DNA of 3,063 bases, taken from the sequence record PZ049712.1, one strand, 5' to 3'. The translations under genes and the position numbers were made by a program. Positions 1,819-3,063 of the stretch are shown piece by piece. Under the pieces are notes generated by a model. It worked only from the letters and a program-made list of their open reading frames with translations, had not been told where the DNA came from and did not search any database. This DNA comes from a phage. Position 1 is the first letter of the stretch. Each line of letters opens with the position of its first letter.

Positions 1819-1839
1819 AAAAAGCGCTCATTTTGAGCG
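1819..1839 (-). terminator. Weak intrinsic-terminator-like motif on the minus strand (5-6 bp stem, then C + T5)
   Basis: Minus-strand reading: CGCTC-AAAAT-GAGCG followed by CTTTTT. Stem is plus 1825..1829 pairing with 1835..1839; the T-run is the complement of plus A1819..A1823. The stem is short, so this is low confidence. It would stop minus-strand transcripts arriving from the pgpA side before they enter the nhaP2 promoter/leader. Confidence 0.2.
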
Positions 1840-1908
1840 ATGTTCGATACCTAGCGGTCGAATCGATTTCATGCCAGATGTTGCGAGGCCTTTCTCGCGC
1901 AATGCCAA

Positions 1909-2400
1909 ATGGTCACCCTAGAGGTTCGACAATTGATCTTTGAGCAAGTCGTTTTATTGATTGCCACTGGTTTCGGGCTGGGGTCTTTACCCTGGGTGCC
2001 TGGAACCTTCGGATCACTGCTGGGGATACCACTGGCGTGGTGGCTCTGGGGGCAGGCGCTGACAAGGCAACTGCTGGTCATCACCGCGCTGCTGGCGGTC
2101 GGCGTTCCGCTGTGTCACTGGGCCTCGCGTTGGCTTGGAGGCGGTGATGCCGCGCAGATCGTTGCCGACGAGTACTTCGCCTTTCCACTGGTTTTTTTGG
2201 GAGTGGCCACAACCCATCGATGGTGGCTACTAGGTGCGGGATTCGCACTGTATAGGCTTTTCGATATCACCAAACCGCCCCCCATTGATTTCGTCGAAAC
2301 CATTGGTGGTGGCTTGGGTATCGTTTTTGATGACGTGCTGGCCGCGCTATTGGCTTGGCTCGTTCTGCGTGGGACACAAGCAGTTTGGAGACGCCCGTAG
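1909..2400 (+). CDS. pgpA: Phosphatidylglycerophosphatase A (PgpA), complete
   Basis: Track ORF 1909..2400 (163 aa). It carries PgpA family signatures: LLIATGFGLGSLPWVPGTFGSL (the G-x-G-x-x-P-x-x-P-G-T-x-G-S motif), QIVADEYFAFPL, FALYRLFDITKPPPIDF and GGGLGIVFDDVLAALLAWLVL, which parallel E. coli PgpA segments AVGFGSGLSPIVPGTMGSL, FVIFRILDMWKPWPI and HGGMGIMIDDIVAG (recalled from memory). Stop TAG at 2398..2400. The start is ambiguous between ATG 1909 (no obvious SD) and in-frame TTG 1933, which is preceded by GAGGT at 1921..1925. Confidence 0.88.
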   Translation: MVTLEVRQLIFEQVVLLIATGFGLGSLPWVPGTFGSLLGIPLAWWLWGQALTRQLLVITALLAVGVPLCHWASRWLGGGDAAQIVADEYFAFPLVFLGVATTHRWWLLGAGFALYRLFDITKPPPIDFVETIGGGLGIVFDDVLAALLAWLVLRGTQAVWRRP

Positions 2401-2624: not shown

Positions 2625-3063
2625 ATGTCGAAAAAGGCACTGACCCCGCCCTCTGCGGCCTTGCATTTCAATCCATTACGCGTGCAACTCGAACGGCTAC
2701 GTAACGAGATGACGAGCGACGCCTGCCTGGCATCGCTGAAAAATATCCAGGTTCATGAGTGCTACAGGCAAAGCGCCGAGAACCTGCTGCAGTACCTATG
2801 TCTTCGTCGCCATGACCTGCGCGAGTTACAAGCGCAGCTTGCCGAGATCGGTTTGTCGTCCTTGGGCCGCGCCGAGGCGGCAATACTCGCAGCTGTGACA
2901 TCGGTGATGGGCGTGTTGCAGCGGCTCGAAGAGCCGAATACCCAAGAGCCCAAGGCCCCTGAGCGTGGTCTCCACGAGGGTGAGCGTCTATTGGCGGCTC
3001 ACGCCGACGCGCTGTTTGGAAAGGCCCGTGGCACGCGCTCGATTCGAATCATGGTGACCCTTC
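2625..3063 (+). CDS. Hypothetical protein, 5' partial ORF (146 codons in window, runs off the right edge); uncharacterised N-terminal region ending in a pyruvate-kinase-like beta-strand motif (TRSIRIMVTL). Possible PK-family enzyme with an N-terminal extension; unconfirmed
   Basis: Open frame from ATG 2625 to the window end, absent from the track because it has no stop in the window. GGAG at 2615..2618 sits 6 nt before ATG 2625. Translation: MSKKALTPPSAALHFNPLRVQLERLRNEMTSDACLASLKNIQVHECYRQSAENLLQYLCLRRHDLRELQAQLAEIGLSSLGRAEAAILAAVTSVMGVLQRLEEPNTQEPKAPERGLHEGERLLAAHADALFGKARGTRSIRIMVTL. Codon third positions are GC-biased like the neighbouring genes. The antisense track ORFs 2668..2901 and 2762..2953 are Arg-rich shadows. 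The final RIMVTL resembles the KIVCTLGP strand that opens pyruvate kinase barrels, but that is only about 6 residues of similarity. An in-frame upstream ATG at 2547 has no SD and would add a low-complexity Ala/Gly-rich 26-aa extension. Confidence 0.6.
   Translation, partial: MSKKALTPPSAALHFNPLRVQLERLRNEMTSDACLASLKNIQVHECYRQSAENLLQYLCLRRHDLRELQAQLAEIGLSSLGRAEAAILAAVTSVMGVLQRLEEPNTQEPKAPERGLHEGERLLAAHADALFGKARGTRSIRIMVTL

What the first reader, a model, noticed from the sequence alone, without database searches (positions are those of the whole stretch)
1909..1935. pgpA start codon ambiguity: ATG 1909 without SD versus TTG 1933 with GAGGT
The longest ORF starts at ATG 1909, but the sequence upstream (cgcgcaatgccaa) has no purine-rich SD. 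A GAGGT (1921..1925) lies inside the first codons and sits 7 nt before an in-frame TTG at 1933, which would give a 155-aa protein starting LIFEQVVLLIATGFGLG. Either length is compatible with PgpA family proteins.
Basis: seen in the sequence. Interest (0 to 1): 0.2.

Follow-up and report, generated by a model that had tools for sequence, protein, structure and literature searches.

The report
PgpA-family gene probably starts at TTG
A small membrane-phosphatase gene of Stutzerimonas stutzeri has two possible start codons, and comparison with relatives indicates that the real one is most likely the downstream TTG with a ribosome-binding site rather than the upstream ATG of the older annotation; this is an ordinary annotation correction that newer RefSeq records already make.

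Summary
ATG 1909, GAGGT 1921-1925 and the in-frame TTG 1933 are exactly where stated, and ATG 1909 has no Shine-Dalgarno (SD) sequence.

Comparative evidence favours TTG 1933:
- **Outgroups.** About 30 outgroup orthologue loci start at an ATG 11 codons before the GFG motif, with stops just upstream. In the Stutzerimonas clade that codon is ATC (1936) and TTG 1933 is the codon directly before it.
- **SD strength.** The SD before TTG pairs at -6.5 kcal/mol. That matches both neighbouring genes and the outgroup starts.
- **Conservation.** In 12 distinct clade sequences the SD hexamer and TTGATC never vary, and 1920-1938 has 1 variable site in 19 (gene-body mean 5.7).
- **ATG 1909 is not conserved.** It is GTG in S. 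kunmingensis, removed by an 8-nt deletion in S. xanthomarina, and an Arg codon in one metagenomic variant. Five of the six substitutions in 1909-1920 change the amino acid.

Public annotation gives 155, 163, 173, 186 and 195 aa for this gene. Recent RefSeq entries already use the 155-aa TTG form, one of them on DNA identical to the window. I put TTG 1933 as the main start at about 0.85; only N-terminal mapping would prove it. Novelty and interest are low.

The parts
1920..1926 (+). Shine-Dalgarno element (AGAGGTT; core GAGGT 1921-1925) serving TTG 1933
   Evidence: It pairs with the 16S 3' end (ACCUCCUUA, canonical sequence assumed) at -6.5 kcal/mol, leaving 6 nt between the paired block and the start. 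The hexamer 1921-1926 is invariant in 12 distinct clade sequences. The nearest outgroups carry GGAGA (L017) and GGAGGTT (L018) at the matching position.
1927..1932 (+). Spacer between the SD and the start codon (CGACAA)
   Evidence: It has one variable site in the clade, 1928 G>A in S. nitrititolerans L056. Its length differs by about 1 nt from the nearest outgroup L018, as expected for non-coding spacer.
1933..1935 (+). TTG, the most likely initiation codon (gives a 155-aa product starting fMet-Ile-Phe-Glu)
   Evidence: It is invariant in all clade haplotypes. It lies one codon upstream of the position of the outgroup ATG start. NCBI already uses it as the start on DNA whose start region is identical to the window (L057; P0129 = WP_437207844.1).
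1936..1938 (+). ATC (Ile), a relic of the ancestral ATG start codon
   Evidence: About 30 outgroup loci (26 distinct start regions) have ATG exactly 11 codons before the GFG motif, and the clade has ATC there. Outgroup L020 reads TTG ATG ATT GAA, against TTG ATC TTT GAG in the window.
1909..1911 (+). ATG used by the older 163-aa annotation; probably lies in the 5' untranslated leader
   Evidence: It has no SD. It is GTG in S. kunmingensis (L003, P0141, P0142, P0145), removed by an 8-nt deletion (1909-1916) in S. xanthomarina L058, and an Arg codon in P0155.
1912..1919 (+). Stretch between ATG 1909 and the SD that evolves like non-coding or unconstrained sequence
   Evidence: In the first nine sequences, the variable sites in 1909-1920 are 1909, 1916, 1918 and 1919, all at codon positions 1 or 2. 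In the gene body, 78 of 142 variable sites are at position 3. L056 adds one synonymous change, GTC>GTA.
1933..2400 (+). Coding sequence of the PgpA-family protein as re-delimited (155 codons plus stop)
   Evidence: Pfam PF04608 matches at E = 9.6e-34 over residues 17-155 of the long form. Variable sites at codon positions 1/2/3 are 40/24/78 of 153 each, so the gene is under purifying selection.
1831..1889 (+). Conserved upstream block, presumed promoter or operator region of the gene (function not established)
   Evidence: It is conserved across clade haplotypes, while DNA further upstream is unrelated between lineages. There is no sigma-70 consensus and no Rfam match. A 1-nt indel at about 1889/1890 shows the adjoining stretch is non-coding.

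Best explanation
Translation of this PgpA-family gene most likely starts at TTG 1933.

The GAGGU at 1921-1925 pairs with the CCUCC of the 16S rRNA 3' end. This places the UUG, 7 nt downstream, in the ribosomal P site, where initiator tRNA reads it as fMet. The product is a 155-aa protein beginning M-I-F-E.

The ancestral start of the family was an ATG at the next codon, now ATC 1936. It was lost in the Stutzerimonas clade, and initiation moved one codon upstream to a TTG served by the same retained SD.

ATG 1909 lies in the 5' leader. It is in frame only because no stop happens to intervene, so longest-ORF gene calling picks it.

- **Shown:** the geometry, the SD pairing energy, conservation of SD and TTG, loss of ATG 1909 in relatives, and the position of outgroup N-termini.
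- **Inferred:** that ribosomes actually initiate at TTG, and the order of evolutionary events.
For: 1. **Family N-terminus.** In about 30 outgroup loci the only start upstream of the near-invariant Glu/Asp is an ATG 11 codons before GFG. In-frame stops at -13 to -20 exclude longer forms in most of them. The clade has TTG at -12, ATC at -11 and ATG/GTG at -20. Alignment A1 puts the outgroup Met on I10.
2. **SD.** Pairing is -6.5 kcal/mol before TTG 1933 and essentially none before ATG 1909. Both neighbouring genes have comparable SDs at similar spacing: -5.8 for the antiporter (GTG 1708, minus strand) and -6.4 for ATG 2625. The outgroup ATGs have SDs with a median of -6.1, and 14 of 18 are at or below -4.
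3. **Nucleotide-level constraint.** In 12 distinct clade sequences, 1920-1938 has 1 variable site in 19, against a gene-body mean of 5.69. Only 7 of 441 windows do as well. The SD hexamer and TTGATC have none, including at wobble positions, whereas half of gene-body third positions vary.
4. **ATG 1909 is dispensable.** It is GTG in L003 and in P0141, P0142 and P0145. An 8-nt frame-shifting deletion removes it in L058, whose gene is otherwise intact and 98.7% identical to L016. P0155 has Arg there.
5. **Codons 1-4 evolve unlike coding sequence.** Five of the six substitutions there change the amino acid.
6. **Existing annotation.** NCBI already annotates the 155-aa TTG form on a start region identical to the window (L057). 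The exact 155-aa sequence is on 60 contigs.
7. **Start-codon strength.** UUG belongs to the efficient class, at 10-100% of AUG. AUC gives only 1-2% (bioRxiv 10.1101/063800).
Against: - There is no direct evidence for the N-terminus: no Ribo-seq, N-terminal peptide or TSS map was found.
- ATG is intrinsically the better start codon, and TTG starts only about 3% of genes (E. coli figure).
- ATG or GTG is retained at 1909 in most haplotypes, and the peptide EVRQ is conserved. That conservation is equally explained by constraint on the SD and spacer nucleotides.
- The motif GAGGT-N5-9-DTG is not rarer than chance in the window alone.
- The clade sample is small: 12 distinct sequences and about 7 distinct start-region haplotypes.
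- In L058 and P0155 other upstream in-frame starts exist, so those genomes do not force TTG.
- In L058 the deletion could be a recent inactivating mutation.
- 467 contigs carry the 163-aa call, though these are automatic calls.
Confidence: 0.85

Rival explanations
1. ATG 1909 is the sole real start, as in the older annotation. The result is a 163-aa protein made by SD-independent initiation, and the internal GAGGT...TTG is coincidental.
For: ATG is the strongest start codon and gives the longest ORF. ATG or GTG is kept at this position in 5-6 of about 7 haplotypes. The 163-aa form is the commonest public call, on 467 contigs. The NCBIfam E. coli-type model aligns from residue 9, so 8 extra N-terminal residues are not unusual for the family.
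Against: There is no SD, while both neighbouring genes and the outgroup orthologues use one. ATG is deleted in L058 and is an Arg codon in P0155. Substitutions in codons 1-4 are almost all non-synonymous. No outgroup has such an extension, and most cannot, because of stops. The wobble-invariant SD, spacer and TTG block is unexplained under this reading.
Confidence: 0.05
2. Both starts are used. TTG 1933 is the main, SD-driven start, and ATG 1909 gives a minor 8-residue-longer isoform in strains that retain it.
For: Both codons are in frame with no intervening stop. ATG or GTG is retained in most haplotypes. There is no significant RNA structure that would occlude either site (z = 0.69).
Against: Nothing positively supports initiation at 1909. 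The extension peptide is not conserved: it shows L>V, T>I and L>T changes, is deleted in L058, and is replaced by unrelated peptides where other upstream starts fall in frame.
Confidence: 0.08
3. Initiation still occurs at the ancestral position, now the non-canonical ATC 1936 (10 nt after GAGGT), or at the downstream TTG 1957.
For: ATC 1936 is homologous to the outgroup ATG, and its SD spacing (10 nt) equals that of L017 and is close to L018. ATC is invariant in the clade. TTG 1957 is in frame and mostly conserved.
Against: AUC initiates at only 1-2% of AUG, whereas the adjacent UUG is in the 10-100% class. TTG 1957 has no SD (-1.9 kcal/mol), is CTG in L016, and would remove the near-invariant Glu12.
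Confidence: 0.02

Closest known systems
Canonical SD-led bacterial initiation at a near-cognate UUG start codon (about 3% of E. coli genes; Hecht et al., bioRxiv 10.1101/063800)
   Same: A 5-nt core SD complementary to the 16S 3' end sits 7 nt upstream of a UUG. Both SD and start codon are conserved in relatives. The SD strength is equal to that of neighbouring genes.
   Different: Nothing mechanistically different. The only twist is historical: the UUG appears to have taken over from an adjacent ancestral AUG that mutated to AUC.
N-terminal over-extension from longest-ORF gene calling (a well-known annotation artefact, corrected by homology-guided start selection in current pipelines; my own knowledge)
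   Same: An SD-less in-frame ATG upstream of the conserved N-terminus is chosen when no stop intervenes. Close relatives receive inconsistent N-termini of 155, 163, 173, 186 and 195 aa, depending on which upstream stops and starts happen to be present.
   Different: None. Recent RefSeq proteins (WP_437207844.1, WP_417780377.1, WP_332822722.1) already carry the short form.
E. coli PgpA (phosphatidylglycerophosphatase A; NCBIfam NF008288 / PRK11068)
   Same: It has the same Pfam domain, PF04608 (E = 9.6e-34), and the family's conserved Gly/Pro/Asp motifs. It is a small hydrophobic protein of similar length.
   Different: It scores 92.5 bits against an equivalog cut-off of 226. Its flanks are a Kef-type antiporter and a PK-domain gene, with no thiL in the window. 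It is an accessory gene found in few Stutzerimonas species, and its nearest relatives are in Halomonadaceae. The enzyme activity is untested.

Membership tests
PgpA family (Pfam PF04608) | Match to the family HMM above the gathering score | tested here: met
   116.8 bits against a cut-off of 28, E = 9.6e-34, residues 17-155 on model positions 1-139 of 141.
PgpA family (Pfam PF04608) | Family-invariant residues present (GxGxG, PGT.G, D80, ADE 86-88, R116, D119, K122, DD 141-142) | tested here: met
   These columns are invariant or nearly invariant in the 35-sequence alignment A1 and are present in the window protein.
PgpA equivalog (NCBIfam NF008288, E. coli-type pgpA) | Score at or above the curated equivalog cut-off | tested here: not met
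   92.5 bits against a cut-off of 226. File it as a 'PgpA family protein', not as pgpA proper.
PgpA equivalog (NCBIfam NF008288, E. coli-type pgpA) | Phosphatidylglycerophosphate phosphatase activity | not testable with these tools
   This needs an enzyme assay or complementation of a pgpA pgpB pgpC mutant.
SD-led initiation at TTG 1933 | SD complementary to the 16S 3' end at about 5-9 nt from an AUG/GUG/UUG codon | tested here: met
   GAGGU, -6.5 kcal/mol, 7 nt before UUG. The anti-SD sequence was assumed canonical. The SDs of the two neighbouring genes support that assumption.
SD-led initiation at TTG 1933 | SD and start codon conserved in relatives beyond the coding-sequence background | tested here: met
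   0 of 6 and 0 of 6 variable sites. 1920-1938 has 1 variable site in 19, against a mean of 5.69, and only 7 of 441 gene-body windows are as conserved.
SD-led initiation at TTG 1933 | Predicted N-terminus coincides with that of orthologues | tested here: met
   The outgroup ATG is at -11 codons from GFG and the window TTG is at -12.
SD-led initiation at TTG 1933 | Direct detection of initiation or of the N-terminal peptide | not testable with these tools
   No initiation-site or TSS data set for S. stutzeri was found in the paper library.
Initiation at ATG 1909 (SD-independent or leaderless) | Start codon conserved among close relatives | tested here: not met
   GTG in L003, P0141, P0142 and P0145; deleted in L058; Arg codon in P0155.
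Initiation at ATG 1909 (SD-independent or leaderless) | Codons after the start evolve as coding sequence (excess of synonymous change) | tested here: not met
   Five non-synonymous changes and one synonymous change in codons 1-4. The numbers are small.
Initiation at ATG 1909 (SD-independent or leaderless) | Transcript 5' end at or just upstream of the ATG | not testable with these tools
   There are no TSS data, and no consensus promoter was found in 1650-2000.

The most novel reading that the evidence does not exclude
Strains that retain ATG 1909 make two isoforms of the phosphatase, a main TTG-initiated 155-aa form and a minor SD-independent 163-aa form. On this reading, the one-codon start migration (ancestral ATG>ATC, with takeover by the adjacent TTG on the same SD) was selected to lower expression of a horizontally acquired membrane enzyme.
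Probability: 0.08. Interest if true: 0.2.

Novelty: already known. Interest (0 to 1): 0.1.

Why it matters
The main value is annotation hygiene. The same gene carries five different N-termini in public databases, including the 163-aa UniProt/GenBank entry for S. stutzeri A1501 (A4VPY2 / ABP81033.1). The evidence here says which one to trust, namely the 155-aa form.

It is also a clean small example of two things. First, a start codon can shift by one codon while keeping its ribosome-binding site. Second, close-relative comparison (indels, loss of the candidate ATG, wobble-invariant SD and start) can settle a start site without experiments.

It has no wider biological consequence unless the protein's N-terminus turns out to matter for membrane insertion.

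Tried and rejected
- **Rfam.** A scan of the whole window at E<=1 found nothing, so there is no leader or riboswitch.
- **Promoter.** A sigma-70 scan of 1650-2000 gave no consensus hit, so a TSS could not be placed relative to ATG 1909. By eye I also found no convincing sigma-54 or extended -10 element in the conserved block 1831-1889.
- **RNA structure.** The fold of 1880-1975 is no more stable than shuffles (z = 0.69). The weak hairpin that includes the SD is not conserved, because codon 11 varies. I therefore rejected structure-based regulation.
- **Motif-frequency test.** It was uninformative in a 3-kb window.
- **Stop codon between 1909 and 1933.** I looked for one in relatives and found none. 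I did find an 8-nt deletion, an Arg codon and a GTG at 1909.
- **Register error.** My first ungapped conservation map was out of register upstream of about 1895 because of a 1-nt indel. I redid it with MAFFT. The in-gene statistics were unaffected.
- **Literature.** A search for S. stutzeri TSS or initiation maps found nothing relevant.
- **TTG 1957 and ATC 1936.** I considered both as starts and rejected them.

Full report
**What is in the window**

The 3063-bp window carries three genes.
- The 5' 569 codons of a Kef-type cation/proton antiporter lie on the minus strand (Na_H_Exchanger plus TrkA_C). Its start is GTG at 1708.
- A 163-codon ORF runs from 1909 to 2400 on the plus strand and matches Pfam PgpA (PF04608, E = 9.6e-34, residues 17-155).
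- A plus-strand ORF begins at ATG 2625. In relatives it is the N-terminus of a 622-625-aa pyruvate-kinase-domain protein.

The PgpA-family protein is identical to ABP81033.1 / A4VPY2 of Stutzerimonas (Pseudomonas) stutzeri A1501. It scores well below the NCBIfam PgpA equivalog cut-off, at 92.5 against 226 bits. It is therefore a PgpA-family paralogue, not demonstrably pgpA itself.

**Checking the observation**

- ATG 1909-1911 is the first start codon after the in-frame stop TAG 1852.
- The preceding bases, cgcgcaatgccaa, have no purine run.
- GAGGT is at 1921-1925.
- TTG 1933-1935 is codon 9 of the ORF, 7 nt after GAGGT.
- The two products are 163 and 155 aa.

I computed duplex energies with the canonical 16S 3' end (ACCUCCUUA, assumed). 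The value is -6.5 kcal/mol upstream of TTG 1933, which only 4% of all window positions reach. There is no useful pairing upstream of ATG 1909.

The two flanking genes have SDs of -5.8 (AAGGA before GTG 1708, minus strand) and -6.4 (GGAG before ATG 2625) at comparable spacing. SD-led initiation is therefore the local norm.

As a bare motif the feature is not rarer than chance. GAGGT-N5-9-DTG occurs once against 1.26 expected.

**Orthologue N-termini**

A protein search returned 3746 homologues. Close Stutzerimonas relatives (80-100% identity) carry the MVTLEVRQ-type extension. More distant orthologues (50-70% identity, mostly Halomonadaceae and some Pseudomonas) are 154-160 aa and begin M-[ILV]-[ED].

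I anchored every fetched locus on the conserved GFG.G...P..PGT motif.
- About 30 outgroup loci (26 distinct start regions) have one candidate start upstream of the conserved acidic residue. It is an ATG exactly 11 codons before GFG.
- In-frame stops at -13 to -20 codons rule out a longer form in most of them.
- In the Stutzerimonas clade, position -11 is ATC (window 1936, Ile10), -12 is TTG (1933), and -20 is ATG or GTG (1909).

At the nucleotide level the outgroups read NTN ATG NTN GAR. Pseudomonas sp. B10 (L020) reads TTG ATG ATT GAA, and the window reads TTG ATC TTT GAG.

The simplest reading is that the family's ancestral ATG start mutated to ATC in this clade. The nearest outgroups have their SD at the matching place: cGGAGAttgaacactaATG in L017 and GGAGGTTaaacgctgATG in L018, compared with GAGGTTcgacaaTTGATC in the window. 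SD energies before the outgroup ATGs have a median of -6.1 kcal/mol, and 14 of 18 are at or below -4. The window's -6.5 is typical.

**How the 24 nt between the two candidates evolve**

I collected 12 distinct clade sequences, representing about 7 distinct start-region haplotypes, from genomes and metagenomes.

*Gene body (1939-2397).* Variable sites at codon positions 1, 2 and 3 are 40, 24 and 78 of 153 each. This is ordinary purifying selection on a functional protein.

*SD, spacer and start (1920-1938).* This stretch has 1 variable site in 19. The gene-body mean for 19-nt windows is 5.69, and only 7 of 441 windows do as well. The SD hexamer and TTGATC have no variable site, wobble positions included. 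The one change is in the spacer: 1928 G>A in S. nitrititolerans.

*Codons 1-4 (1909-1920).* These carry A1909G, C1916T, C1918G, C1918A with T1919C, and C1914A. Five of the six change the amino acid. Codon 11, just after TTG ATC, is TTT, GCA or ACG. This fits a poorly constrained second or third residue.

*Upstream.* A 1-nt indel at about 1889/1890 shows that the region is non-coding.

**Natural knock-outs of ATG 1909**

- In S. kunmingensis the codon is GTG. This is seen in L003 and in proteins P0141, P0142 and P0145, where gene callers then jump to upstream ATGs and produce 173- or 195-aa products.
- In S. xanthomarina GCA_048260365.1 (L058) an 8-nt deletion removes ATGGTCAC (window 1909-1916). 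The deletion is not a multiple of three and ends 4 nt before the SD. SD, spacer, TTG and the whole gene are intact, with 98.7% nucleotide identity to L016.
- The L058 frame shift brings a different, SD-less ATG (the equivalent of window 1871) into frame. It encodes an unrelated peptide, so the extension is not a conserved part of the protein.
- In the metagenomic variant P0155 the residue at the 1909 position is Arg, which is not a start codon. Its DNA could not be fetched.
- TTG 1933 is present in every DNA sequence examined. Every protein call that reads through that position has Leu there.

**State of public annotation**

The exact 163-aa sequence is on 467 contigs and the exact 155-aa TTG form on 60. 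RefSeq holds 155-aa entries:
- WP_437207844.1 (S. stutzeri)
- WP_417780377.1 (S. xanthomarina)
- WP_332822722.1 (S. kunmingensis)

It also holds 163-, 173-, 186- and 195-aa entries for the same gene.

In L057 (GCA_051450685.1) the start region is identical to the window, ATG 1909 included, and NCBI's call is the 155-aa form. The correction therefore already exists, but it has not been propagated.

**Mechanism and likelihood**

The best explanation is ordinary SD-led initiation at UUG 1933. GAGGU pairs with the anti-SD, the UUG 7 nt downstream is read by initiator tRNA, and the product starts fMet-Ile-Phe-Glu.

In E. coli, UUG belongs to the 10-100%-of-AUG class, whereas AUC gives 1-2% (bioRxiv 10.1101/063800). 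After the ATG>ATC change, the adjacent TTG is therefore the obvious heir to the retained SD. An outgroup with TTG ATG (L020) shows a plausible intermediate.

My estimates are as follows.

| Reading | Probability |
|---|---|
| TTG 1933 is the main start | 0.85 |
| Dual use of TTG 1933 and ATG 1909 | 0.08 |
| ATG 1909 alone | 0.05 |
| ATC 1936 or TTG 1957 | 0.02 |

The geometry, energies, conservation and loss of ATG are shown. Actual initiation at TTG is inferred.

**Caveats**

- The clade sample is small and its sequences are phylogenetically related.
- In L058 and P0155 other in-frame upstream starts exist.
- The anti-SD sequence was assumed, not read from this genome.
- No TSS, Ribo-seq or N-terminal data were found.
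- No promoter could be placed.
- There is no Rfam element and no significant RNA structure.

**Verdict**

The test favours TTG 1933. This is a routine start-site mis-annotation that newer RefSeq records have already corrected, with a minor evolutionary footnote: a one-codon start migration on a retained SD. Novelty: already known. Interest: low.

Noticed in passing
window 1831-1889 (+): A block of about 60 nt upstream of the gene is well conserved across clade haplotypes, whereas 1711-1830 is unrelated between lineages. It has no sigma-70 consensus and no Rfam hit. It is presumably a promoter or operator of unknown type.
   Followed up: partly
L056:1-400 (S. nitrititolerans GCA_018441575.1); junction at about window 1903: An IS-type transposase gene (rve domains, minus strand) replaces everything upstream of the gene to within about 6 nt of the ATG-1909 position. 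The conserved upstream block is therefore absent in this species.
   Followed up: no
window ~2322-2326 (T5 run) and ~2275-2283 (C-rich run ccgcccccc): Truncated or frameshifted alleles of the gene recur in public assemblies. P0124 and P0125 end at ...GLGIVF, just before the conserved DD motif (59 and 12 contigs). This is consistent with a +1 T in the T5 run, which would create TGA. P0005 (204 aa, 13 contigs) shifts at the PPP codons into the overlapping +ORF 2234-2524. These could be real inactivation, homopolymer slippage or sequencing error.
   Followed up: no
window 1909-2400 and loci L011-L022: The gene looks accessory and possibly horizontally acquired. Only four close GTDB species representatives have it. 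The downstream neighbour is a PK-domain gene in the window, L016, L057 and L058, but PhoX on the minus strand in L011-L013. The nearest outgroups are Halomonadaceae in unrelated contexts, next to a ParE/PaaA2 toxin-antitoxin pair or a resolvase.
   Followed up: partly
window 2625-3063 (+): The ORF from ATG 2625 has no Pfam hit over its first 146 residues. In relatives it continues into a 622-625-aa protein with a pyruvate kinase (PF00224) domain, so this is a pyruvate kinase with an unusually long, uncharacterised N-terminal extension.
   Followed up: no
window 1708 (-): The antiporter gene starts with GTG, preceded by AAGGA 6 nt upstream (-5.8 kcal/mol). This is another non-ATG, SD-led start in the same window. 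The divergent intergenic region is 224 nt if PgpA starts at TTG 1933.
   Followed up: yes
window 1825-1839 (-): There is a terminator-like hairpin, CGCTCAAAATGAGCG followed by CTTTTTACTC, on the minus strand inside the divergent intergenic region. No convergent gene needs it, and 0.4 such sites are expected by chance, so it is probably fortuitous.
   Followed up: no
L004 (MAG DALYUY010000431.1): Its upstream region matches the L011 / S. kunmingensis type, while the 5' end of the gene matches the window type. This suggests recombination near the start region. The locus also has a frameshift, but coverage is only 2.3x.
   Followed up: no
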